This document shows positions 4,299 through 41,499 of a stretch of 59,508 nt of DNA, piece after piece. Where the stretch lies: the IMG/VR virus record IMGVR_UViG_3300049024_000030, positions 1-59,508 of that record. The stretch is one strand, 5' to 3'. The translations under genes and the position numbers were made by a program. The notes under the pieces are model-generated. The model searched no databases, was not told the DNA's origin, and worked only from the letters and a program-made list of their open reading frames with translations. Source of the stretch: a virus. Its lineage: Duplodnaviria; Caudoviricetes. Each line of letters opens with the position of its first letter. The stretch's first letter is position 1.

Positions 4299-4574
4299 TC
4301 ACTTCCCTATTATCTCCGTCCCCTTCGCGTGATTCCCTGCCGGCGGATCGCGACGAATCACAGTCTCTTTCTGATTCAACCCTCCCGTTCGCGTCTGCGT
4401 CATTACCTCGCCTTCGCAGGTAATAAACACGGCGTCGCCTACTATCTCGATAATCCAACCGTCGAAAACCAGGCGCGCGGCCTTACCCGGCGCGGAACAT
4501 GGCGTGACGATTTGCCGGGTTGACGGAATCTCTCTTGGCGCGACCGCGTAAATATGCCCGCCTTCGTCCATCAA
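4299..4574 (-). CDS. small tail-tip associated protein
   Basis: Last gene of the tail operon; overlaps the stop of 4571-6616. Confidence 0.55.
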   Translation of the reverse strand: MMDEGGHIYAVAPREIPSTRQIVTPCSAPGKAARLVFDGWIIEIVGDAVFITCEGEVMTQTRTGGLNQKETVIRRDPPAGNHAKGTEIIGK

Positions 4575-6616
4575 TCAACCCTCGCTTCCTTGAAGCGAAA
4601 CGACAGATCGTAGGCGCATTGGCCGCTGCCCTCGTGGTGAATTACCGAATCAAACCTTCCCGCCTTTCTGACGCCGCGGTTGGAGTCCACGAGAATAAAC
4701 ACCTTGCCGAATCCGTGCGCGTCGAAGAAGGCGTCAACGGTGTCGCATTCGGTTAATGTCCGCGCGGCGAAGCGAACCTCATAGGAATCGTACGGCGGCG
4801 CTTTTTCGCGAGTAACGAAACTTGTTCTGTCTTCGGATTCGCTTATCAGCGCGTTAAGATTTCTATCCCAGCTAATCGGCAGAATTGGGTTAGTGAGCGG
4901 GAATAGCTCGGCGATCAATATATCCCGCGTCGCTGTGAAAGTTCCGTTCGTCGCCTGAATCCGCACCTTCGCGCCGGGAGTATTCGGAAAGGTTATAATC
5001 CCCGTACTACCATTGATTCCGCTCGGGACTGATGTCCATGTTGGGCTTGTGATATTCGTATTGAAATCCACCTGCTCCAATGGCCCCGCGTACAAGATCG
5101 CGGGCGTGATCACTGCCGGAACATTGATCGTCGCGTCCATCGCCTGATTCCCCGTCGAGGACGCGCGGACGACCGTTGTCCCCGGCGCGCTCGGCGCTGT
5201 GAATTCATTCCCTGAAAACGATCCGCCACCGCTGACTACAGACCATGTGACCAGTCCCGGCGTCTGAGCGTCGTCGTAGTTGGCTTGGAATCGCGCCTTC
5301 GCGCTCGGCTGAATTGTCTGCGTGAGATCGCTTAGGATTTTCAGGGCTGGAATATTTATGATCGCTTCGGCCAGTTGAAGCCGGCCCGGATACTTGCCTA
5401 TAAAATCAAAACTGCATACGCCGTCAAAAATCCTCAGAGCCATTCCATTCAGCGTGCGGCCTTCGAGGTCTACTAGATTGGCTGGAATCTCCAGCAATAC
5501 CCATTGATTCGTCGCTGGTAAATTTCCAATCCGCCACCTGCTCGGCGTGCCGTCCGTGCCGTAAACGATCGAGTTCGCGCCCCAGTAAGCCCCGTGCGCG
5601 TTGCCGGTGGCATCCGTCGCGGTGAAGCCTAAAAGGATTTCAGTCGGCGGATTCGTCGCGTCAAGGAACACGCGGCATATGAGCACGTCGTCTTTATCGA
5701 TCTGCAGTGTGTCGGAGGCGCCAGAAATGACATAACCGTGGTCCCCCGCCGCAAGTGGAGATTTTAGCCGGGCCGAGCCGGAAAATGGCGTAGGGCTGCC
5801 AGTGCCCCAAACCCATGACCCGCCGCTTGTGCTTACGCTCGACCCCGCCGGCTTATCGTCTTCGATCCAGATATATACGCCAGGCTGAATCGTTGCTTTC
5901 AGACTGTATCTGCCTGGCACGGTTCCGCCGCTGTAGATTTTTTCGAGCGGAGTAGCTCCCGCGCCAAGCGACCCATGCTCAACGCTGAAAGCTACGACGT
6001 TGAACCCTAAGAAATCGGTCCCCAGCAGCCTCCAATCGCCCGATATCCTTGGCGGGGCAACGGTCGCGGGCGGGGATTGCACAAAGGGATCGGAGCCCGA
6101 GGCGCGAACGGCGTAGGAGCCTGGATAGAGAATTGCGGAAGCGAACGTCAGGCGTTCATGGCGTAAGACATCATCAATATAGGCCCGGAAATTTCCGTTC
6201 ATCTCGATGCGGATTTTCATCCCTGAGACCGGCGTAATCGGGAGGGTGGCTAGAGTCGAGCCTGCTTCGTCAACAATCAGAATACTGGTCAGTTGAAGCC
6301 GGACAATATACTGCCAGAACGTCCCCGCGGTGGCCTTCTGCATTATGCCTATGAAATCTATATTCGCGCCTGAAATTGGCAGGGATTGAGGCGTAAGCGT
6401 CCATTCCATCGAGCCTGCTCCCTGCGCCAGCCTGAAGGCGCCGCTGGCCTGTATCGTCCCGCCCGATTGATTGCCTGGAGTCCTAACTGAGCCGTCTGGC
6501 AGAATCAGCCCCGCGTTCATCCTCCAGTATAGCGGCGGATGCGAGGCACGCGCGGTGAATAGCTGCACGTCGCTGGGATAAAGGTCGATGATTGGTGGGA
6601 AAATATCGAATCCCAT
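4571..6616 (-). CDS. tail tip / receptor-binding protein with beta-sandwich and Ig-like domains and a C-terminal Dit(gpM)-like domain
   Basis: Beta-rich; VTWSVVSGGGS Ig-like motif; C-terminal EVRF...VDAFFDAHGFGKVF resembles distal tail proteins; position after the hub gene. Confidence 0.7.
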   Translation of the reverse strand: MGFDIFPPIIDLYPSDVQLFTARASHPPLYWRMNAGLILPDGSVRTPGNQSGGTIQASGAFRLAQGAGSMEWTLTPQSLPISGANIDFIGIMQKATAGTFWQYIVRLQLTSILIVDEAGSTLATLPITPVSGMKIRIEMNGNFRAYIDDVLRHERLTFASAILYPGSYAVRASGSDPFVQSPPATVAPPRISGDWRLLGTDFLGFNVVAFSVEHGSLGAGATPLEKIYSGGTVPGRYSLKATIQPGVYIWIEDDKPAGSSVSTSGGSWVWGTGSPTPFSGSARLKSPLAAGDHGYVISGASDTLQIDKDDVLICRVFLDATNPPTEILLGFTATDATGNAHGAYWGANSIVYGTDGTPSRWRIGNLPATNQWVLLEIPANLVDLEGRTLNGMALRIFDGVCSFDFIGKYPGRLQLAEAIINIPALKILSDLTQTIQPSAKARFQANYDDAQTPGLVTWSVVSGGGSFSGNEFTAPSAPGTTVVRASSTGNQAMDATINVPAVITPAILYAGPLEQVDFNTNITSPTWTSVPSGINGSTGIITFPNTPGAKVRIQATNGTFTATRDILIAELFPLTNPILPISWDRNLNALISESEDRTSFVTREKAPPYDSYEVRFAARTLTECDTVDAFFDAHGFGKVFILVDSNRGVRKAGRFDSVIHHEGSGQCAYDLSFRFKEARVD

Positions 6617-20294: not shown

Positions 20295-21794
20295 CTATTC
20301 TTCAGCGGCCCCGCCGCGATCAAAATTACGGCTTATCGCATCCTGCATTGCGATTTCCGCTTCCCGTTTCAGTTGCGCCTCCGCCTCAAGCGCGACCTTC
20401 TCTTTCTTCGGGTCGAAGTCACTCGGCAACTTGCCGCCCGACTTGAATACTTTCCACATCGTTTCAACCGTGAACTGACCCGCGGCGACCTCATTGCTCC
20501 AGGCGGTCATCTCTTCCGGCGTCAGTTCCTGCGCGTCCAGGCTCGCCCCGACTTCGATATTGCCACCTGTCGTGGCGCCCGGGCTTCGATATTGAACGTG
20601 AAACTTGAGGGCGAGTTCTATGGCGTCTTTCAGGCCGCGCGCCCATGTAGCAAGATCGCTGGATTCTTCAATCTCGTCGCCGCGCTCTTCTGTGGCCGTA
20701 ATCGGCCCACCCGTGCGCTTGACGAGTAGCGAGAGACCGAGGATTGACATTCGCTCCTCAAGATCTTTGATATCCTGGCTCGCGGCTGCCAGCGCCGCGC
20801 CCGTCGTCTCGGCGTACCAGACATCACCTTCGGGAGCCACGTCAAAGATCGTATAAGGCCCAATTGTCGTGATTGGATTATTCGGATCAGCGCCCTTGCG
20901 ACAGAGCACCGGACGTGATGCGATATGCAGATAAATGGAAAAGTCGGAATATTTCTGATAATGAGCAATATTCGTATAGGCCAGATCAATCAGCGGCGGC
21001 TGCGATTCGAGGACATTGCATTTACGCGAGTAGACGATAGCGACCGGAATCTCAGTCAGATTGGTGACCCCGCCCGGATTGTCGGGGTCGGGCACGATCT
21101 GTGTCTGCAGGTTCTCGCCCTTGACCTCTTTGTAAAGCTCCCAACTGCCAGGCTTCAATACTCGATAGCGCGTGACTTCTTTCTCGCCGTACTCGCCGTC
21201 AGGTTCTTTGGAACATTCCTTGAAAACGATCAGATCAAGCATCGTCTGGCCGTTCACGATCTTCGTGCGCCAGTTGATAATTTGATCGGCAGAGTAGGAA
21301 ACCCAATATGGCCGGCGTCCTGCCGTTTTCTCCTCAGCCATCGTCGCGCCCTCTTGGAGCGGCGGAGGCATATCAACGAGGATCGCAGCGTGACCGTCGC
21401 GCACGGCGTTCTTAAAGACCTCTTTGCAAAACACGACGCCATGCGTTCCAGCGTTATCTATATTTTCCCATTCACCTTCAATCTGAACATTTTCACCTTC
21501 CGATTCCCTGCCTCTGATCACCTCCGGAACATTGTCGGAGAGTTCTGGATCGTTGCGGAAAACCATCCCAACCAACCCAGCCAATGTCAGATCGACGGCG
21601 TTAAAGAAAATGGCGCGATTGAGACGGTAAGTGTAGGGACCAGGCTGCTCGGCGGGCTCTTTGGGTAGATATGCCACGCCCTTCCTGCGTAGCTCCGGCG
21701 TCCCGATACAGGTGTCGCGCATGATCTCCCACGAGCCCTTCATGCACTCGTAAGCGCCACATAGGTAATTGGGTTGGTTCTTATCTCCGGCCAC
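20295..21794 (-). CDS. portal protein (DUF4055 / SPP1-like)
   Basis: YLPKEPAE...YTYRLNRAIFFN, PPLIDLAYTNIAHYQ, TATE; follows TerL; probable GTG start at 21794. Confidence 0.92.
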   Translation of the reverse strand: MAGDKNQPNYLCGAYECMKGSWEIMRDTCIGTPELRRKGVAYLPKEPAEQPGPYTYRLNRAIFFNAVDLTLAGLVGMVFRNDPELSDNVPEVIRGRESEGENVQIEGEWENIDNAGTHGVVFCKEVFKNAVRDGHAAILVDMPPPLQEGATMAEEKTAGRRPYWVSYSADQIINWRTKIVNGQTMLDLIVFKECSKEPDGEYGEKEVTRYRVLKPGSWELYKEVKGENLQTQIVPDPDNPGGVTNLTEIPVAIVYSRKCNVLESQPPLIDLAYTNIAHYQKYSDFSIYLHIASRPVLCRKGADPNNPITTIGPYTIFDVAPEGDVWYAETTGAALAAASQDIKDLEERMSILGLSLLVKRTGGPITATEERGDEIEESSDLATWARGLKDAIELALKFHVQYRSPGATTGGNIEVGASLDAQELTPEEMTAWSNEVAAGQFTVETMWKVFKSGGKLPSDFDPKKEKVALEAEAQLKREAEIAMQDAISRNFDRGGAAEE

Positions 21795-21800
21795 GGCGCA

Positions 21801-32563: not shown

Positions 32564-32643
32564 ATCGTGTCAGTAATGGAGGTTATGAAGTAATGGCCGG
32601 CAATGGGTGAATGCTATACGAGTCCGAATGAATATTTACGCGA

Positions 32644-33558
32644 TCAGAAATCCGCCTCTCGATAACCCGTTCGCGCCTGCCCCCTTGCCCCTGGCGCGCG
32701 TTCCTTCTCGAATGATTCCAGCTTCCCGACTTCGCAAAGCCGATTAAGCCACACCTGAACATAAATCCGATCCCGCTTCATCCTGGCCGCGATCTGATCG
32801 CATTCGTCGTAACCCTGGCGAAGTAGTTCATAAATCGTCACTTCCACCGTCTGGGGCGGAAGGGTGAGTTCGTATTGAATTTCTTCGACATAGCCATTTA
32901 TTAAGTTTTGCAGTCGTGGCGCGGCGGTAATCATCTGGCGGCAGGCCACTTGAAAACCTTCCCACGCCGCGGTTACTTCAGGATCATCGCAGAGCGCCGG
33001 GACTGTCGTATCCAATGGCGGTGTTTTCTCTTCTTCAAGCATTCGTCGAGCATCCCTTGTCGAGAAGTAGGGATTGTCGGACTTTTGGCGAGCGAATTTT
33101 TCAATCGTCCCCCATGGATCATCGGTATGGTAGGCGAGCCGATAGAATTCCTTTTGGCGCAAGTGCTGAAGAGAGCCGTTTTCAATCTCTCTAGTCTTGG
33201 CGCCAAGACTAGAGAAAAACGTCTCGTGAATGCCCGCGTTCTCATATACCAGCTTCGGCGAAACGGCGCAGAGATCGGCGTATTCCTGCACGGCCCTTGC
33301 CACCTGCTGGCCCTCGAGATCGTATCGTCCCCTGGCGCCCCTTGGCTGCGAGCGCCGCGCAACTTCAGCGTCACAGGCGCACTCGACACGCCACGACATA
33401 TAGCCGAGCGATTCCACCTGCTGGCGAATTTCCAATACTCGGTCGTCCGCCGTCTCAGGCAGTTCGGAAATAAGCCTGTCCGCCATCGCTTCAACGCTAT
33501 TGAAAAATCCGATTGCCGTTGACGCAATCGCTTGTGAGGGAGTTGAAATTGCTGTCAT
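32644..33558 (-). CDS. DNA-binding protein with C-terminal winged HTH (candidate late activator)
   Basis: IAARMKRDRIYVQVWLNRLCEVGKLE wHTH; last early gene before the late promoters; RBS AGGAGA. Confidence 0.6.
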   Translation of the reverse strand: MTAISTPSQAIASTAIGFFNSVEAMADRLISELPETADDRVLEIRQQVESLGYMSWRVECACDAEVARRSQPRGARGRYDLEGQQVARAVQEYADLCAVSPKLVYENAGIHETFFSSLGAKTREIENGSLQHLRQKEFYRLAYHTDDPWGTIEKFARQKSDNPYFSTRDARRMLEEEKTPPLDTTVPALCDDPEVTAAWEGFQVACRQMITAAPRLQNLINGYVEEIQYELTLPPQTVEVTIYELLRQGYDECDQIAARMKRDRIYVQVWLNRLCEVGKLESFEKERAPGARGQARTGYREADF

Positions 33559-33635
33559 TGTTCTCCTGGTACTGCTGTTATGGGAAAGCGCCGGCGCGTC
33601 CGGCGCGTTAGGTGATACGTTGGGGCGCGCGGTAA

Positions 33636-33730
33636 AACGTTGCGTTGAATTGCGAAGCGCCGAGGCGCAGCGCGATGCCCGGCATGAAGTAGCCCTGCAT
33701 CGCCCGAAGATGCAGCGCGTTACCCGACAC
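33636..33730 (-). repeat. 5-nt periodic array D (19 units) with conserved tail; putative guide-like ncRNA
   Basis: tgt CG ggt AA cgc GC tgc AT ctt CG ggc GA tgc AG ggc TA ctt CA tgc CG ggc AT cgc GC tgc GC ctc GG cgc TT cgc AA ttc AA cgc AA cgt T. Confidence 0.85.
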
Positions 33731-34240
33731 TTAACCCGCCTTCCGCTTGCTCAATAGATCAATAATCCCGCCCGTCGAAAGCTTACCGTCATCCGGCGCG
33801 GCCTCGTGTATCTTCTTCGCCTCTTTCTCTCGCGCCCAATTCTTGAGAGTGTTGGCGAAGGCGCGGTTCGTATTAACCTCTTTCTGTTCCTCCTTGCCCA
33901 ATTTCTCAATTGGGACAAATCCCAGTTTCCTCTCGATGTCCCCGGCGGCTTTTCGAATCCGCTTTCTGCCAATCAACGGCACAGCCTTGCTGTAATCGGA
34001 TTCCGTGACGCGCTGAATGCCGGAAGTCCGCATTACACTGAAGAATATGCTTTCTTCGCGGGCTAGATACCTGACGGCACTATCGAGAACATGGCGCGCC
34101 TCTTTCTGAACATTGCGCCCGATCAGTTCAGACAATTCGCGATAAGTCGCGCTGGCGCTGTAGTCCAGTTCGCGAAGTTTTTCGATCAGCATTTGAGTGT
34201 CGAGACTAAGCTTGAATTCTGGCCTAATATTCTTTTCCAT
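33731..34240 (-). CDS. basic winged-helix protein, partner of the Cas7-like gene
   Basis: RBS AAGGAG before ATG 34240; TYRELSELIG...AVRYLAREESIFF..GIQRV wHTH-like; flanked by arrays on both sides. Confidence 0.75.
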   Translation of the reverse strand: MEKNIRPEFKLSLDTQMLIEKLRELDYSASATYRELSELIGRNVQKEARHVLDSAVRYLAREESIFFSVMRTSGIQRVTESDYSKAVPLIGRKRIRKAAGDIERKLGFVPIEKLGKEEQKEVNTNRAFANTLKNWAREKEAKKIHEAAPDDGKLSTGGIIDLLSKRKAG

Positions 34241-34257
34241 AAATCTCCTTAAAGTAG

Positions 34258-34332
34258 AAACGTTGCGTTGAAGAGCCTCGCGGGGCGGTGAGCAGCGACG
34301 TGATGTGCAGCGACGCGCAGCCCCACCGGGCA
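34258..34332 (-). repeat. 5-nt periodic array C (15 units)
   Basis: tgc CC ggt GG ggc TG cgc GT cgc TG cac AT cac GT cgc TG ctc AC cgc CC cgc GA ggc TC ttc AA cgc AA cgt TT. Confidence 0.85.
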
Positions 34333-34361
34333 TTGGCAAATCTAAAAATGTAAAAGAGCGA

Positions 34362-34446
34362 AAACGTTGCGTTGAAGTGCGTTACCGCGCCGGGCGCAAC
34401 AGCGCGCTGCACAGCCAAGCACTGCGGTGCGGGGCCTCGCGGCGCT
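34362..34446 (-). repeat. 5-nt periodic array B (17 units)
   Basis: agc GC cgc GA ggc CC cgc AC cgc AG tgc TT ggc TG tgc AG cgc GC tgt TG cgc CC ggc GC ggt AA cgc AC ttc AA cgc AA cgt TT. Confidence 0.88.
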
Positions 34447-35010
34447 CTAAGCCTCTTGCCAGTCCACCTTATTCACCTTGAACCGGCCATAAAATCCGTT
34501 TTGGCGCGGACGGAAACGCCCTAATCCGATCAAGTTCCCCGCCGCCTCCAGATGTGCCGTGAAAACATCCTGAGTAATCAGCTCGTCCACGATGTAGAAA
34601 ACCACTGTCACTTTCCATGCGGGAATCAGCGGGTAACACTTCCAAACCCTCTTACCTGATCCGCGCTTACCGTCGGCGGGCAAGAACAACCATTCGCCTT
34701 GGACTTCCTCTTTCTTGATGGGCAACACTGGCCCCTCAGTAACCAGAATCCCAGCCTCGAAGTTTTTGGTATATGTCGCCTTCCCTTTTCCCGGCACCTG
34801 AACGCTGAGAAATTTCGCGATCTCCGCTATACAATTTTTAAACGCCATCGGCGGCATAAATACGTAGCCATCAGCGTTGACGTGCAGCCGGTCGCGCCAT
34901 GTCCGCTCTTCGTAATCTTTCGGCAGTTCCCTATCCTTCTTCGGCGTCGTGTAATTCTTGGATTGTGAATACTGTGAAGTGCTTTCAAGTTCGCACGTTG
35001 CAATGATCAT
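34447..35010 (-). CDS. stand-alone Cas7/Csm3-like RAMP protein
   Basis: N-terminal beta strand (ATCELESTSQY), VFMPPMAFKNCI (compare the RAMP IPGSSLKG region) and a C-terminal G-rich loop GLGRFRPRQNGFYGRFKV; RBS AGGAGA. Confidence 0.8.
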   Translation of the reverse strand: MIIATCELESTSQYSQSKNYTTPKKDRELPKDYEERTWRDRLHVNADGYVFMPPMAFKNCIAEIAKFLSVQVPGKGKATYTKNFEAGILVTEGPVLPIKKEEVQGEWLFLPADGKRGSGKRVWKCYPLIPAWKVTVVFYIVDELITQDVFTAHLEAAGNLIGLGRFRPRQNGFYGRFKVNKVDWQEA

Positions 35011-35044
35011 ATCGGGTCTCCCTTTTGTTGGTTGTTAATAGTTA

Positions 35045-35109
35045 TAGCGTTGCGTTGAGCGGCGATGCCAAGCATTGCGCAGACGCGCGGTGCCATGCGA
35101 AGCACAACG
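35045..35109 (-). repeat. 5-nt periodic array A (13 units)
   Basis: cgt TG tgc TT cgc AT ggc AC cgc GC gtc TG cgc AA tgc TT ggc AT cgc CG ctc AA cgc AA cgc TA. Confidence 0.82.
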
Positions 35110-35112
35110 TGG

Positions 35113-35454
35113 TCAAGTCGTCGCCTCTCTGTATTTCTTTATCGCCGATTGCAATTCAATCCGCGCCAGGTGTTCTTTGCTTTTCAAAACATCGGCGCGC
35201 GGGTACTCGTGAACCGATCCGTTCTGATAGTCGTAAAGTTCAGTCGCCGCGTCGTCCCACTTCACGCCACTTTCGGCCAGCTTATGCAGCGCGTCGAGTT
35301 GGGCGACGGCGGGAACCTTGACGGCAGCGCGCAGCGAAATGATTTCCTGATCGCGGTTCCACACGTCGAGTTTCAGTTGCGTGATATCCGCCTTCAGCCG
35401 CTCAATTTCCCGGCTGCGTTCGGTTAATGGATCAAGAGTTTTAAGTCCGTTCAT
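35113..35454 (-). CDS. hypothetical protein
   Basis: ATG after a G10 tract; coiled-coil N-terminus. Confidence 0.7.
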   Translation of the reverse strand: MNGLKTLDPLTERSREIERLKADITQLKLDVWNRDQEIISLRAAVKVPAVAQLDALHKLAESGVKWDDAATELYDYQNGSVHEYPRADVLKSKEHLARIELQSAIKKYREATT

Positions 35455-35466
35455 AACCCCCCCCCC

Positions 35467-36147
35467 TTACTGAAACCTGAACCCCACAAATCCGCGCACC
35501 TCGCCCGCGCGCTTCCCTCGCGTCTCGTTGCCTTCGCGGTAATGGTGATAGCGGCCTTCGACGCCGAAGTGAAGGTGTAAATAGCCGCTGATCTTGCGCG
35601 TGTGACTGAATTCCCCGCCGAAACCGCGCAATCCTGAATAACTGTAGGTATCTGGGAAGTAGTAAGAAAAGATCGCTTCGCTGCCGCCGAGCCTAACACC
35701 CGCGACCGCCGTTGGATTGACTGACGAGTTGTACAGGCGATACGGCCCGCCGGAACGGTAGACGCCGGGTGATCTGTCGAAGAAGTGCCTTATCGTGCTC
35801 ACCCCGCCGCCGACGAAGACCTTGTTCAACGGTTCAACCGGCAGATAGCCGACCAATACCGCCTTGTATCTCAATTCCGACTCGGCGCGCGTCGGACCGT
35901 ATTCGCCGGTGAAGAGATTGGGAATGATTGGGTTGTTCAGATACGCGCCGGTGAATCGCGCCTGGAAGCCATGCCGTAGATCGTAGGCGCTGTCGACGTA
36001 GGCGCCGGTGATGGTTTGGGAACGTTCGGCGGTGGTTCCGGCAAAGGTAACGCCGCCGCCAATCCATGTGCGCGGCGATTGATCCTGCGCGACGGCGGTA
36101 ATGGTTGAAAGTGCTACTAAAGTGAAAATCAGTATTCGGTATTTCAT
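35467..36147 (-). CDS. outer-membrane beta-barrel protein (Lom/Ail-like function possible)
   Basis: Signal peptide ending AVA-Q, alternating amphipathic strands, C-terminal VRGFVGFRFQ; RBS AAGGAG. Confidence 0.75.
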   Translation of the reverse strand: MKYRILIFTLVALSTITAVAQDQSPRTWIGGGVTFAGTTAERSQTITGAYVDSAYDLRHGFQARFTGAYLNNPIIPNLFTGEYGPTRAESELRYKAVLVGYLPVEPLNKVFVGGGVSTIRHFFDRSPGVYRSGGPYRLYNSSVNPTAVAGVRLGGSEAIFSYYFPDTYSYSGLRGFGGEFSHTRKISGYLHLHFGVEGRYHHYREGNETRGKRAGEVRGFVGFRFQ

Positions 36148-36244
36148 AACTGCAATGCTCCTTGTTTGGTTTCTGCGTTTAAATCGTCCCTGCTGTCCCG
36201 CTGGTCAGTCAGAGCCTAAAAATCGAACCTAGCCCGGTTTCCGC

Positions 36245-39021: not shown

Positions 39022-39248
39022 ACACTCATTGCCTCCGTCAGCCGCGCGATTGCGGCCTGATAGTCTTCGGTGGACAGGTTGAAGTCGCCGATTGCGCGCT
39101 TCGCCGGCTCGTATACGTCGCGCCAGACGTTTTCGATAGTTCTGTCGCGCGATAGCCGGGAGGACTGTTCGATGATGCGGTTGACAGCGATGGCGATTAG
39201 TTCTTCTTGTGTAGGCGCGTCCGTCTCTACTGTGATAGTTGATTCCAT
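39018..39248 (-). CDS. hypothetical protein
   Basis: Overlaps the end of dnaB. Confidence 0.65.
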   Translation of the reverse strand: MESTITVETDAPTQEELIAIAVNRIIEQSSRLSRDRTIENVWRDVYEPAKRAIGDFNLSTEDYQAAIARLTEAMSV

Positions 39249-40600
39249 TTGTCTTCAAACCTCATTACCTGTTTGAGAAACACCAGTTCAACCGTACAAA
39301 GCGGCCCGTTGCGGTTTTTGAGAAGAATCAGTTCGGCTATGTTCTGCGCTTCCGTTTCCGGGTTGTACACTTCGTCGCGGTAGAGTCCGATCAGCAGATA
39401 CGCGTCCTGCGCGATCTGGCCCGAGTCACGAAAGTCTGAAAGCATTGGCCGCTTGTTGGTTCGCTTTTCCAGTTCGCGATTGAGTTGCGAAATGGCGACG
39501 ACGACGCAGTTGAAATCCTTGGCGATCTGAACGAGTCCGCGACTGATCTTCGCCACTTCCGCTTCACGCGACTCCCCCTTACCGCGTTCGCCGTCGCCAA
39601 GCTGGATATAGTCCACGAAGACAATATCTACGTGGCCTTCGTCGTTCTTCAGCTTGCGCACCGCTTCCCGCATTTTGCGCGGTGACAGCGCGGCTCTATC
39701 GTCGAAGTGGACGCGCCAGCCGGCTATCTGCTGCATGGCTTGTCCAACGCGAACCCATTCGTCCTTGTCCAGATACCCGGTGCGTAAGCGTTTCATGTCC
39801 ACCCTGGCGACGGACGCCAACAGTCGCTGCGCTTGCTGCTTTACCGGCATTTCCATTGAGAACCAGCCGATAACAGGCGGACGGCCGTCAACGAAATTGT
39901 CCTGGCACTCGGACATATGCGTTGTCATAGACAGAGCCAACCCAGTTTTTCCCGCACCTGGCGCGGCGCCGATAACAACCACCGTTCCGCGTTCCAGGCC
40001 GTCCGTGACGTAATCCAGATCGCGAAAGCCGCTGCTGAAATCCAGCACGCTACGGCCGGAATTGCCGCGCTCTTCGGCTTCAACCATTACGTCGTAGGCG
40101 ACGCCGGCAATATCGCGCCAGTAGGTAAGATTCGAGTCGCTGCCGATCAGCGCCAGATCCTGCTCGGCTTGCCGCAACTGATCGTCCACCGACTCTTCAC
40201 CGTCGAACGCGCGCGCCGTCACAGCGGCGCCGTAGTGAATCAGCCGGCGTTCGCGCGCGGCGTTTTTCACCAGCCGGACGTAATTTTCGATATTCGAGAA
40301 ACGCGGTACGCCGTCAAAGAGACTGGCAATGTAGAACTGGCCGCCGATGCGTTCTAACTGGCCGGCGCGGCGCAATTCTTCCGCCAGCGTCAACGGATCA
40401 ATCGCTTCGCCGCGGCTGTGCAGCGCGAGCATTGCCGCGTAAGCGGCGCGGTTGGCGGTTGAAAAAAAGTCGTCTTCGACAAGCGTCCCAAGCGCTTGTT
40501 CAAAAACCGCGTTATCGAGAATCCCGCAGCCGAGAACCATTCGTTCGGCTTCCAGGTTCGTCGGCAATGGTTTTTCAAACGTTACGTCCGGTTCTCTCAC
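39227..40600 (-). CDS. dnaB: replicative DNA helicase
   Basis: LPTNLEAERMVLG, Walker A GAAPGAGKT, FSMEM, VDYIQL, SQLNR, RPMLSDFRDSGQIAQDA, KNRNGP. Confidence 0.97.
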   Translation of the reverse strand: MREPDVTFEKPLPTNLEAERMVLGCGILDNAVFEQALGTLVEDDFFSTANRAAYAAMLALHSRGEAIDPLTLAEELRRAGQLERIGGQFYIASLFDGVPRFSNIENYVRLVKNAARERRLIHYGAAVTARAFDGEESVDDQLRQAEQDLALIGSDSNLTYWRDIAGVAYDVMVEAEERGNSGRSVLDFSSGFRDLDYVTDGLERGTVVVIGAAPGAGKTGLALSMTTHMSECQDNFVDGRPPVIGWFSMEMPVKQQAQRLLASVARVDMKRLRTGYLDKDEWVRVGQAMQQIAGWRVHFDDRAALSPRKMREAVRKLKNDEGHVDIVFVDYIQLGDGERGKGESREAEVAKISRGLVQIAKDFNCVVVAISQLNRELEKRTNKRPMLSDFRDSGQIAQDAYLLIGLYRDEVYNPETEAQNIAELILLKNRNGPLCTVELVFLKQVMRFEDKWNQLSQ

Positions 40601-41499
40601 CGTTCACCCCCTTGCGTTTTCGGCCGGCGGTAGTCCGCCGGCGCCGACACCACGGGCGGCCGGGTTGACTCAACCACCGTGGCCGCGCCGTTCGCTTCCC
40701 CGCGCTTACGCTTACCCCGGACGAATCCCGGCAAATCGGCGCGAAGAATCTGCAGCGTCAGCGGATAGTTGCTTCCCTGCTTGGCCTTCCGGCGGTAATA
40801 GTCCGACTCGTAGTCGGCAACGTCGGCGGCTGTGGCGCCTATGTCCACGCACACTTGCGCCAGCTCGTGGAACGGCGCCGCAGAATCGCCTGCAGGGACG
40901 CAAGGTTCCCCAACGGCTTTGGCCACTACGTCCGCCATTTCGGCCAGCGGGTCGTGAAAGTCGTCGAGCGGGTTGCCGCTGCTGCTGGCGTTCGCGCGCT
41001 CGCGCGTCGCCTCCGCCTCCGCCTCCGAATACGCCTCCGCCTCTAGCGGTCGCGTGACGGTCGCGTGACGGTCATTTTGCGGCTTTATTGCGTTGACTGG
41101 ACTTAAGCCGCTTCGTGACGGTCGCGTGTCTGCCGTATGGCCGTCGTCCGGCAGGCTGCTGTCAGGTTTAGGCTTGTCCGGCGCCGGGAACCTGCTGGCC
41201 GTCTTCTGCCTCATCCGTTGTTGAAAGTTCTGGATCTCCAGAAACCGCCGGCTCTTGGCATCCACGTAACAGCGAATCAGTCCGGCCTTCTCGCACGCAG
41301 CGGTCCAGCGGGAAATGTCGGTTTCACGTATATCTGGCAAGAGCGGGAACAGGTTGGCTTTCAACAATCGGGGATCGGCATGAAAACGTCCGTAATCGTC
41401 CGCCTTCATAATCAACCGCACAAAGAAGCGTTCTTCCTGCGCGTCGAGTTCGTTGACGGCGAATGAATCAGTCCAATCTCTGAGAATGCGATTTGGCAC
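40597..41499 (-). CDS. phage replication initiator / replisome organiser
   Basis: MPNRILRD...FFVRLIMKADDYGRF N-domain; low-complexity linker with iterons; upstream of dnaB. Confidence 0.8.
   Translation of the reverse strand: MPNRILRDWTDSFAVNELDAQEERFFVRLIMKADDYGRFHADPRLLKANLFPLLPDIRETDISRWTAACEKAGLIRCYVDAKSRRFLEIQNFQQRMRQKTASRFPAPDKPKPDSSLPDDGHTADTRPSRSGLSPVNAIKPQNDRHATVTRPLEAEAYSEAEAEATRERANASSSGNPLDDFHDPLAEMADVVAKAVGEPCVPAGDSAAPFHELAQVCVDIGATAADVADYESDYYRRKAKQGSNYPLTLQILRADLPGFVRGKRKRGEANGAATVVESTRPPVVSAPADYRRPKTQGGER
41047..41130. repeat. iteron-like repeats (CGGTCGCGTGA) inside the initiator gene; putative origin
   Basis: CGGTCGCGTGA twice in tandem plus CGGTC at 41047-41073, and CGTGACGGTCGCGTGTC at 41114-41130. 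Confidence 0.6.

What the first reader, a model, noticed from the sequence alone, without database searches (positions are those of the whole stretch)
33636..35109. The variable dinucleotides may spell four gapped guide sequences
Seen: NN strings, tails excluded. A = TG TT AT AC GC TG AA TT AT CG. B = GC GA CC AC AG TT TG AG GC TG CC GC AA AC. C = CC GG TG GT TG AT GT TG AC CC GA TC. D = CG AA GC AT CG GA AG TA CA CG AT GC GC GG TT AA. The four strings are unrelated to each other, as spacers would be, and A is AT-rich in a GC-rich genome. Inference: they could pair with targets contiguously or with a skipped base (NNxNNx...). A skipped third base would make recognition blind to codon wobble; D read that way is compatible with a peptide like R-K-A-I-R-E-R-Y-Q-R-I-A-A-G-L. 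I could not find self-targets by eye.
Basis: inference. Interest (0 to 1): 0.88.

Follow-up and report, generated by a model that had tools for sequence, protein, structure and literature searches.

The report
Phage VIPR guide-RNA locus, YGC-NN type

Summary
Four minus-strand intergenic tracts of 10, 14, 12 and 16 pentamers have the form N-G-Y + NN, and each ends in YTCAACGCAACG. Position 3 is a pyrimidine in 52 of 52 units. The NN positions carry 1.96-1.97 bits.

The 187-aa gene between the tracts (34447-35010, minus) is a Vipr homologue. A profile hits PDB 36pp 'SUSP1 Vipr protein' at E=3.5e-9, and the AF2 model matches Cas7-family RAMPs. Three 2026 preprints show that Vipr polymerises on GGY/NN vrRNAs and that the NN pairs read double-stranded DNA with one skipped base per pair.

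It is not shown directly here. No gap model beat shuffles in the phage's own genome, as the first preprint also reports for its systems. Exact-seed scans of viral and metagenome contigs, and a mismatch scan of 406 genomes, gave only chance-level candidates.

All 10 viral relatives and 31 of 37 genomic relatives carry such arrays. Their scaffold triplets are lineage-specific (CGC, GGC, GAC, GTC, CTC, CAC, GTT).

This scan has met VIPR before on other DNA: 655 notes in at least 463 genomes, including a CGC-NN type. Verdict: a new member of a known kind, of modest interest.

The parts
It starts 3 nt after the stop codon of the upstream 113-aa gene.
35045..35059 (-). vrRNA-1 3' tail: CTCAACGCAACG plus CTA, i.e. 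two 'AA' units and then CG. It ends about 35 nt before the vipr start codon.
34447..35010 (-). vipr: 187-aa single-RRM RAMP (Cas7-like) with thumb and glycine-rich loop GLGRFRPR.
   Evidence: Profile against PDB 36pp_D 'SUSP1 Vipr protein' E=3.5e-9; single sequence E=3.5e-4. AF2 pLDDT 89.9. Foldseek: 119 PDB chains at E<=1e-3, top hits from type VII and type III (Csm/Cmr) CRISPR effector complexes. phrog_4652; no Pfam family. 1674 database homologues.
34361..34376 (-). vrRNA-2 3' tail: TTCAACGCAACG plus TTTT.
34258..34272 (-). vrRNA-3 3' tail: TTCAACGCAACG plus TTT. It ends 14 nt before the start codon (34243) of the next gene, whose AAGGAG ribosome-binding site lies in that gap.
33731..34243 (-). 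vap-like accessory gene, 170 aa: N-terminal winged-helix-like topology (H-E-H-H-E-E) plus a helical C-terminal part.
   Evidence: Homologues sit directly downstream of vipr in 7 of 10 viral relatives. Only 4 database homologues. AF2 pLDDT 86.9. Foldseek found nothing at E<=1e-3; the best hit is E=0.03, and most of the weak top hits are winged-helix DNA binders (GntR/FadR, MarR, Zalpha). No Pfam or PHROG family.
33634..33649 (-). vrRNA-4 3' tail: TTCAACGCAACG plus TTTT.
33585..33606 (-). GC-rich hairpin (GCGCCGG-ACGCG-CCGGCGC) followed by UUU, between vrRNA-4 and the next gene. It may be the end of the VIPR transcription unit; this is unverified.
   Evidence: Fold (whole-segment z-score -0.38, not significant). 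Tandem 9-mer seen. Not picked up by the terminator scan.

Best explanation
This is a VIPR (Viral Interference Programmable Repeat) locus of a complete 59.5-kb phage genome. It holds vipr, a winged-helix-like accessory gene and four co-oriented vrRNA genes.

By homology with the SUSP1 and P. fulva systems, each tract is transcribed and one Vipr protomer binds each pentamer. The thumb and glycine-rich loop sequester the N-G-Y triplet and present the two following bases. The 10-16 NN pairs then read double-stranded DNA in a gapped register (NN, skip 1, NN ...), starting from the tail-proximal 3' end, and form a protein-held R-loop that blocks transcription of a rival mobile element.

Shown here:
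- the array anatomy;
- Vipr homology by sequence and fold;
- conservation of array plus vipr plus partner gene across relatives;
- hypervariable NN against a conserved triplet.

Inferred:
- transcription and processing of the four RNAs;
- the 1-nt skip rule in this clade;
- DNA rather than RNA targets;
- silencing as the outcome.

The targets remain unknown.
For: (1) Vipr homology. Profile A1 against PDB 36pp_D gives E=3.5e-9 over the thumb and G-loop region. The AF2 model has pLDDT 89.9. Foldseek gives 119 chains at E<=1e-3, with the top hits from type VII and type III (Csm/Cmr) CRISPR effector complexes.

(2) Arrays. Period-5 GC is found only at the four tracts. Unit counts of 10, 14, 12 and 16 lie within the published 9-16. 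Position 3 is Y in 52 of 52 units. NN entropy is 1.96-1.97 bits. The 3' tail is invariant.

(3) Comparative. Arrays flank the homologue in 10 of 10 viral relatives: 8 by the GC-period test and L004 and L012 with other triplets. They are present in 31 of 37 genomic loci, against 0 clusters in 377,228 bases of unrelated control loci. Over 913 CGC-type units the entropies are 0.67, 0.85, 0.77, 1.92 and 1.99.

(4) The published mechanism covers alternative YNNNG repeats, which is this locus read from the Y.

(5) No self-target beyond shuffles, as the first preprint reports for its own systems.

(6) The location is viral: a record with direct terminal repeats, rated 100% complete.
Against: No natural target was found. 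D units 6-15 and B units 5-14 gave 0 exact 1-nt-skip matches in viral contigs and in metagenome contigs.

Eight-unit seeds gave 5 (D), 25 (B), 10 (C) and 10 (A) hits. Their unsearched units matched at chance level, with three exceptions:
- A matches 20 of 20 in the portal gene of L092. That is a cyanophage-like contig, the skip base falls on codon position 1, and about 0.04 such hits are expected by chance for this guide.
- C matches 19-20 of 24 in a RusA-like gene in four GC 40-43% contigs.
- C matches 22 of 24 in a giant-virus bin (L048).

D units 1-15 with up to 3 mismatches gave 0 of 5 and 0 of 401 genomes.

The triplet here is N-G-Y, not GGY. The SUSP1 residues that read G1 and G2 (D177, R138) align to R165 and Y126. 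The tail is about 12-15 nt with no shared sequence beyond it, unlike the 40-60-nt pseudoknot tail of SUSP1. So rules learned on SUSP1 may not transfer in detail.
Confidence: 0.8

Rival explanations
1. A VIPR-like filament with a different code in this clade. The NN bases do guide, but with another skip length, against RNA rather than DNA, or with position 1 of the triplet also read. Position 1 is only loosely constrained here.
For: Position 1 carries 1.59 bits in this phage. D177 and R138 of SUSP1 Vipr are replaced. The published Vipr can pair with ssRNA in vitro. No 1-nt-skip target was found.
Against: Position 1 almost never is A (1 of 52) and is mostly C in close relatives (0.67 bits over 913 units), so it behaves as scaffold. 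In the published structure the one-base skip pocket is formed by the thumb and the helical bundle, but I did not compare those elements in the model here. Gaps of 0, 2 and 3 nt did no better than 1 nt in anything I could scan.
Confidence: 0.1
2. The tracts are only protein-binding leaders, like the GAG-NN repeats bound by TRAP (a comparison I recall, not from a call). Vipr coats its own operon RNA to control translation or termination of vipr, the partner gene and the next gene, and NN are meaningless spacers.
For: Three of the four tails end 14-75 nt upstream of a start codon on the same strand. A hairpin plus U-run follows tract 4. NN entropy near 2 bits is also what free spacers would show.
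Against: The homologous protein has been shown to use NN for programmable DNA recognition. Arrays in relatives often stand in tandem, with no gene after each one (up to 9 arrays detected in a single locus, L075). An invariant tail after a variable tract is the published vrRNA architecture.
Confidence: 0.07
3. Double-stranded DNA iterons or operators bound by the winged-helix-like partner protein, such as partition or repressor sites.
For: The neighbouring 170-aa protein has a winged-helix-like topology. Arrays of short direct repeats upstream of genes occur in plasmid regulators (recalled, not from a call).
Against: A 5-bp period puts successive sites on opposite faces of B-DNA (inference). 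The arrays follow the Vipr homologue in all relatives, whereas a partner-gene homologue was found in only 7 of 10. All arrays are co-oriented with vipr and strand-asymmetric. No sigma-70-like promoter was found in the region (0 found against 1.2 expected).
Confidence: 0.03

Closest known systems
Type II VIPR of Escherichia phage SUSP1 and the Pseudomonas fulva prophage (Vipr + vap1 + GGY/NN vrRNAs; bioRxiv 10.64898/2026.04.26.720920, .720927 and 2026.10.15.759431; PDB 36pp)
   Same: Phage-borne. One small single-RRM RAMP with thumb and G-loop, plus one small DNA-binding-like partner gene. Four co-oriented vrRNA genes of 10-16 pentamers flank the genes. The triplet ends in a pyrimidine and is followed by a hypervariable NN. 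The 3' tail is invariant. There is no self-target.
   Different: The triplet is N-G-Y (C26/G14/T11/A1 at position 1) rather than GGY. SUSP1 D177 and R138 align to R165 and Y126, while W178 and R179 align to F166 and R167. The tail is a short (Y)TC-AA CGC-AA CG motif with no conserved pseudoknot-sized extension. The arrays are interleaved with the genes (1 + 2 + 1) rather than 1 upstream and 3 downstream. Sequence similarity to SUSP1 Vipr is confined to residues 98-182. Targets are unknown.
VIPR systems with alternative repeats (NNNGG, YNNNG, NNNNG), mentioned in the methods of 10.64898/2026.04.26.720920
   Same: Read from the pyrimidine, this locus is C-NN-N-G, which is the YNNNG class.
   Different: Which of the seven published types uses it, and whether this Vipr clade is among the 664-667 representatives, cannot be told. 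Fig. 5A, figs S16-S17 and data S4 were not visible to me (figures are not held and supplements are closed).
Class 1 CRISPR Cas7 backbone filaments (Cascade, Csm/Cmr, type VII)
   Same: RRM, thumb and G-loop fold. One protomer per repeat of guide RNA, with periodic base flipping (fold matches; mechanism as described).
   Different: 5-nt rather than 6-nt period. Three guide bases are sequestered and two are presented. There are no repeat-spacer array, no Cas6, Cas5, large subunit or adaptation genes, and the system is virus-encoded.
TRAP-type RNA-binding sites (triplet repeats with 2-3-nt spacers; recalled, not from a call)
   Same: Triplet plus 2-nt spacer at a 5-nt period, bound by an oligomer at one subunit per repeat.
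   Different: The protein fold is unrelated. In TRAP the spacers carry no information, whereas in VIPR they are the information.

Membership tests
VIPR system | Vipr protein: a stand-alone minimal RAMP (single RRM, thumb, glycine-rich loop) homologous to characterised Vipr | tested here: met
   Profile against PDB 36pp_D 'SUSP1 Vipr protein' E=3.5e-9, residues 98-182. Single sequence E=3.5e-4. AF2 pLDDT 89.9. Foldseek: 119 chains at E<=1e-3, top hits from type VII and type III CRISPR effector complexes.
VIPR system | vrRNA genes: tandem pentamers of a conserved triplet ending in a pyrimidine plus hypervariable NN, about 9-16 units, next to vipr | tested here: met
   10, 14, 12 and 16 units. 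Y at position 3 in 52 of 52, G at position 2 in 45 of 52, NN 1.96-1.97 bits. Period-5 signal only at these four places in the window.
VIPR system | Canonical GGY triplet | tested here: not met
   Position 1 is C26/G14/T11/A1. This fits the published alternative class YNNNG, so it does not exclude membership of VIPR at large.
VIPR system | Invariant 3' tail after the variable tract | tested here: met
   YTCAACGCAACG closes all four tracts. Terminal AA units are family-wide: 106 of 117 arrays have an AA unit among the last four, against 137 of 1561 internal units.
VIPR system | Structured (pseudoknot) tail, as in the SUSP1 clade | tested here: inconclusive
   The four tails share no sequence beyond about 15 nt. 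The fold of the vrRNA-4 downstream region is not better than shuffles (z = -0.38). No dedicated covariation test was run. The first preprint ties the pseudoknot to the SUSP1 clade only.
VIPR system | Accessory vap gene beside vipr | tested here: inconclusive
   A conserved 170-aa partner lies downstream of vipr in 7 of 10 relatives. Its topology is winged-helix-like but Foldseek gives at best E=0.03. It could not be compared with vap1-6 because no sequences were on hand.
VIPR system | Encoded by a virus or provirus | tested here: met
   Virus record of 59,508 bases with direct terminal repeats, completeness 100. Portal (DUF4055) and other phage genes are present.
VIPR system | vrRNAs expressed as roughly 100-nt RNAs that co-purify with Vipr | not testable with these tools
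   No read data could be laid on the locus. Needs sRNA-seq and a pull-down.
VIPR system | NN read dsDNA by the 1-nt skip rule; natural targets lie in rival mobile elements | tested here: inconclusive
   No exact core matches for D or B. Seed hits for all four guides extend at chance level except three marginal candidates. 0 of 406 genomes for D.
VIPR system | No self-targeting | tested here: met
   In 16 guide-by-gap tests against 200 shuffles each, the best is A at gap 1 with 16 of 20 at 35135 on the + strand, reached by 6 of 200 shuffles. About 0.5 such results are expected over 16 tests.
CRISPR-Cas | Repeat-spacer array with cas1/cas2 or a multi-subunit effector operon | tested here: not met
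   Repeat search of 32-37 kb found only a 9-bp x 2 tandem. Neighbouring ORFs have no Cas families in Pfam.

The most novel reading that the evidence does not exclude
Within one Vipr clade (39-70% identical proteins) the sequestered scaffold triplet has diversified into private codes: CGC, GGC, GAC, GTC, CTC, CAC, GTT and possibly ATT, with a relaxed N-G-Y in this phage. The G-loop residue that aligns with SUSP1 D177 co-varies in part with the triplet: R with CGC and GGC, F or V in several GAC systems, S or T in several CTC systems, Q in CAC systems.

If this reflects selection, scaffold switching would be an arms-race move. It would stop rival elements' solo vrRNAs from loading onto a phage's Vipr, which is the hijack shown for SUSP1 satellites. 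It would also supply a ready-made set of orthogonal Vipr/scaffold pairs.
Probability: 0.25. Interest if true: 0.55.

Novelty: new member of a known kind. Interest (0 to 1): 0.27.

Why it matters
It adds a complete, uncultured 59.5-kb phage to the VIPR class. This member has a relaxed N-G-Y scaffold and a very short AA-AA tail. It also shows that this Vipr clade (1674 database proteins at E<=1e-3, none with a Pfam domain on record and the few named ones called hypothetical) spans many bacterial phyla with lineage-specific scaffold triplets.

For the scan, it shows that a tool-less reader can recover the gapped-guide logic from sequence alone. It does not open a new question. The mechanism is in print, and this scan has already logged hundreds of VIPR loci, including a CGC-NN one.

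Tried and rejected
My first reading was a TRAP-like binding site with meaningless spacers, which I put at about 50%. I dropped it once the PDB profile hit to SUSP1 Vipr appeared and the papers were read.

Rfam: 0 hits at gathering level on the whole window. One chance-level miRNA hit (E=0.23) at the lax threshold on 33400-35300.

Promoter and terminator scan of 33400-35600: 0 promoter-like sites. Two terminator-like sites were found, fewer than in shuffles, and neither is at the arrays.

GenBank phages, blastn of 32600-36200: no match.

RNA evidence: no RNA holder was listed.

I therefore could not fetch the 86-92% identical Vipr contigs (P0003, P0005) or the 77% one (P0012) to compare guides between near-identical systems.

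Target searches that led nowhere:
- Own genome, gaps 0-3.
- D and B ten-unit cores in viral and metagenome contigs.
- D eight-unit seed: 5 hits, with 2-5 of 16 outside-seed bases matched.
- B eight-unit seed: 25 hits, with 1-6 of 12 matched.
- D units 1-15 with up to 3 mismatches: 0 of 5 and 0 of 401 genomes.
- 111 guides from relatives plus this phage against 344 kb of held sequence: no gap model stands out.

Candidates weighed and not accepted:
(a) Guide A matches 20 of 20 in the L092 portal gene. About 0.04 such hits are expected by chance for this guide and about 0.2 over four guides. The skip base is on codon position 1. The L092 portal is 78% identical to that of a Synechococcus cyanophage, whereas this phage's portal is nearest (32%) to Variovorax, Xanthomonas and Stenotrophomonas phages. 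No other guide converges on L092.
(b) Guide C matches 19-20 of 24 in a RusA-like gene (my label from the motif, recalled, not run against Pfam) in L046 and L051-L053, in wobble register. These contigs are GC 0.40-0.43. At this database size 80% matches are expected by chance in large numbers (my estimate).
(c) Guide C matches 22 of 24 in L048, a GC 0.40 giant-virus bin, out of wobble register.
(d) An 8-unit guide of relative L005 matches 15 of 16 in this phage's DnaB-like gene, in codon register. It is reached by 4 of 1000 shuffles, but about 32 guides were tested.

VIPR type I-VII could not be assigned because the figures and supplements that define the types were not visible.
Full report
OBSERVATION. 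The window is a complete virus record of 59,508 bases with direct terminal repeats. Genes around the finding run on the minus strand.

Read on that strand, four intergenic tracts fall into an unbroken 5-nt register.
- A = 35060-35109, 10 units;
- B = 34377-34446, 14 units;
- C = 34273-34332, 12 units;
- D = 33650-33729, 16 units.

A scan for GC recurring at a 5-nt period (at least 7 of 10 units) finds four clusters in the whole window, all at these tracts. The same test at periods 3, 4, 7 and 8 finds nothing, and at periods 6, 9 and 10 it finds 1, 3 and 6 positions, against 26 for period 5.

Over the 52 units, position 3 is a pyrimidine in 52 of 52 and position 2 is G in 45 of 52. Position 1 is loosely constrained (C26, G14, T11, A1). 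Positions 4 and 5 carry 1.97 and 1.96 bits.

The four NN strings are no more alike than shuffled versions. Each tract ends in YTCAACGCAACG, which occurs nowhere else in the genome at 0-1 mismatch. The 'AT-rich A' remark rests on 20 bases and the peptide reading of D is trivially possible.

WHAT IT IS. The 187-aa gene between tracts A and B has no Pfam family and only an unannotated PHROG. A profile of it and 21 relatives hits one solved structure, PDB 36pp 'SUSP1 Vipr protein', at E=3.5e-9 over residues 98-182, the thumb and glycine-rich loop. The single sequence gives E=3.5e-4.

The AlphaFold model (pLDDT 89.9) matches 119 PDB chains at E<=1e-3 in Foldseek. The top hits are chains of type VII and type III (Csm/Cmr) CRISPR effector complexes.

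The 170-aa gene after tracts B and C has a winged-helix-like topology. Fold matches are weak (best E=0.03). Homologues sit in the same place in 7 of 10 viral relatives.

LITERATURE. A full-text search for the PDB molecule name found three 2026 preprints.

For 10.64898/2026.04.26.720920 I read the outline, the whole Results and methods sections 20, 26 and 27, plus passages by term search. It reports the following:
- VIPR systems are phage-borne.
- They consist of Vipr (a minimal RAMP), a vap accessory gene, and vrRNAs of 9-16 YNNGG (GGY/NN) repeats followed by an invariant 3' tail.
- The NN dinucleotides specify double-stranded DNA targets with one skipped base per pair.
- Skip bases fall mostly on codon wobble positions.
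- Targets lie in rival satellites and prophages.
- No self-target reaches 80% NN match.
- Alternative repeats NNNGG, YNNNG and NNNNG exist.

For 10.64898/2026.04.26.720927 I read the outline and the whole Results. It shows one protomer per repeat. The triplet is sequestered by thumb and G-loop (G1 by H17 and D177; G2 by R138 and W178; Y3 by a pocket that includes R179). R-loop formation proceeds from the 3' tail towards the 5' end.

For 10.64898/2026.10.15.759431 I saw the outline, the abstract and passages by term search. It shows satellites and phages carrying solo vrRNAs that hijack or target rivals' VIPR.

Supplementary files and figures were not visible to me.

COMPARATIVE EVIDENCE. The Vipr homologue family is large: 1674 proteins at E<=1e-3, none with a Pfam domain on record, and the few names given are 'hypothetical protein'.

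Ten viral contigs encode relatives at 44-70% identity. Eight have GC-period arrays beside the gene. The other two have arrays with G(A/G)C-NN (L004) and YAC-NN (L012) units.

Thirty-seven loci in genome assemblies from many phyla encode relatives. A composition-free period-5 detector finds arrays in 31 of them. It finds none in 377,228 bases of unrelated viral loci used as a control.

In the 127 arrays parsed, the triplet consensus is lineage-specific: CGC 51, GAC 24, CTC 14, GGC 13, GTC 6, CAC 4 and others. The triplet positions carry 0.2-1.0 bits and the NN positions 1.8-2.0 bits.

Terminal 'AA' units are a family-wide tail signature. An AA unit is among the last four in 106 of 117 arrays, against 137 of 1561 internal units.

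TARGET SEARCH.

Own genome. For 4 guides x 4 gap lengths, each against 200 unit-order shuffles, nothing stands out. The best is guide A at gap 1 with 16 of 20, reached by 6 of 200 shuffles. This agrees with the published absence of self-targets.

Public collections. These could only be scanned for exact patterns, so I searched with tail-proximal cores and used the unsearched units as an independent check.
- Ten-unit cores of D and B gave 0 hits in viral contigs and 0 in metagenome contigs.
- Eight-unit seeds gave 5 (D), 25 (B), 10 (C) and 10 (A) hits.
- The extra units matched at the 25% chance level, apart from the three candidates below.

Candidate 1. Guide A extends to 20 of 20 in L092, inside a DUF4055 portal gene.
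- That portal is 30% identical to this phage's own portal but 78% identical to that of a Synechococcus cyanophage.
- This phage's portal is nearest (32%) to Variovorax, Xanthomonas, Stenotrophomonas and Bordetella phages.
- The skip base falls on codon position 1.
- No other guide converges on L092.
- The expected number of such perfect hits is about 10/256 for this guide and about 0.2 over four guides.

Candidate 2. Guide C matches 19-20 of 24 (19 of 20 over units 3-12) in a RusA-like gene motif in four related contigs, in wobble register. These contigs are GC 0.40-0.43, and 80% matches are not rare in a collection of this size. This phage has no homologue of that gene.

Candidate 3. Guide C at 22 of 24 in L048 lies in a GC 0.40 giant-virus bin, out of wobble register.

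Genomes. Guide D (15 units, up to 3 mismatches) was not found in 5 genomes carrying relatives, nor in 401 genomes of the order of one of them.

Held sequence.

No natural target is established.

HOW IT DIFFERS FROM SUSP1.
- The scaffold is N-G-Y rather than GGY. Read from the pyrimidine it is the published YNNNG class.
- In the HMMER alignments, SUSP1 D177 (reads G1) aligns with R165 here and R138 (salt bridge to G2) with Y126. W178 and R179 align with F166 and R167. Loss of the aspartate fits the relaxed position 1, but this is inference.
- Across relatives, the residue at position 165 varies partly in step with the triplet.
- The tail is about 12-15 nt, and nothing is shared beyond it among the four copies. 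SUSP1 has a 40-60-nt pseudoknot tail.
- The arrays are interleaved with the genes, and three tails end 14-75 nt before a start codon. Processing of the vrRNAs might therefore also set the 5' ends of the mRNAs (inference).

RIVALS. A VIPR filament with a different code in this clade (0.10), a pure binding-leader role with meaningless NN (0.07) and dsDNA iterons (0.03) are not excluded by direct evidence. Each is disfavoured by the homology, by the tandem arrays without downstream genes in relatives, and by the strand asymmetry.

VERDICT. No target was found.

This is a new member of a known kind. The mechanism has been in print since April 2026. This scan has already logged VIPR loci on other DNA: 655 notes in at least 463 genomes, including a CGC-NN system.

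A later check recorded in those notes found that part of an earlier 'guides spell a conserved motif' claim fell. That is a further reason why I do not promote the portal and RusA-like matches. Interest is modest.

Noticed in passing
L004-L013 and L054-L087 (relatives); window 34447-35010: The scaffold triplet differs by lineage within one Vipr clade (CGC, GGC, GAC, GTC, CTC, CAC, GTT, possibly ATT in a Nanoarchaeia bin). The G-loop residue aligned with SUSP1 D177 co-varies in part: R with CGC and GGC; F or V in 5 of 8 GAC-majority loci; S or T in 3 of 5 CTC loci; Q in both CAC loci. I could not see the preprint's fig. S17 to check whether these scaffolds are already catalogued.
   Followed up: partly
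window 40446-40468 (+), inside the DnaB-like helicase gene 39227-40603 (-): An 8-unit guide upstream of vipr in relative L005 (3947-3986) matches this phage's helicase gene at 15 of 16 NN bases by the 1-nt skip rule, with skip bases on wobble positions (peptide FFSTANRA). It is reached by 4 of 1000 shuffles, but about 32 guides were tested, so it is not significant.
   Followed up: partly
L092 5471-5499 (+), portal gene 4363-5811: Guide A of this phage matches 20 of 20 NN bases in the DUF4055 portal gene of a cyanophage-like contig. This is probably chance: a different host group, and the skip base is on codon position 1.
   Followed up: yes
L046 3237-3602; also L051, L052, L053: The ten tail-proximal units of guide C spell, in reverse complement and wobble register, DSGVHTIQ(A)Q of a RusA-like 121-aa protein conserved in four low-GC viral contigs (19 of 20). 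The RusA label is recalled from the motif and was not run against Pfam.
   Followed up: partly
window 35135-35163 (+): The best self-match of any guide: guide A, 1-nt skip, 16 of 20. It lies 26 nt from array A, antisense to the upstream 113-aa gene. It is reached by 6 of 200 shuffles.
   Followed up: partly
window 33585-33606 (-): A seven-pair GC hairpin followed by UUU lies between the last vrRNA tail and the 304-aa gene. It may be the end of the VIPR transcription unit. The simple terminator scan did not call it.
   Followed up: partly
window 20397-21800 (-): The portal protein (DUF4055) is at most 32% identical to portals of cultured phages (Variovorax, Xanthomonas, Stenotrophomonas, Bordetella siphoviruses). 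This phage has no close cultured relative, and its host was not identified.
   Followed up: partly
L075, L009, L011, L068 (relatives): Some relatives carry many more arrays than this phage. Up to 9 were detected in 2.3 kb (L075), often in tandem with no gene between them.
   Followed up: no
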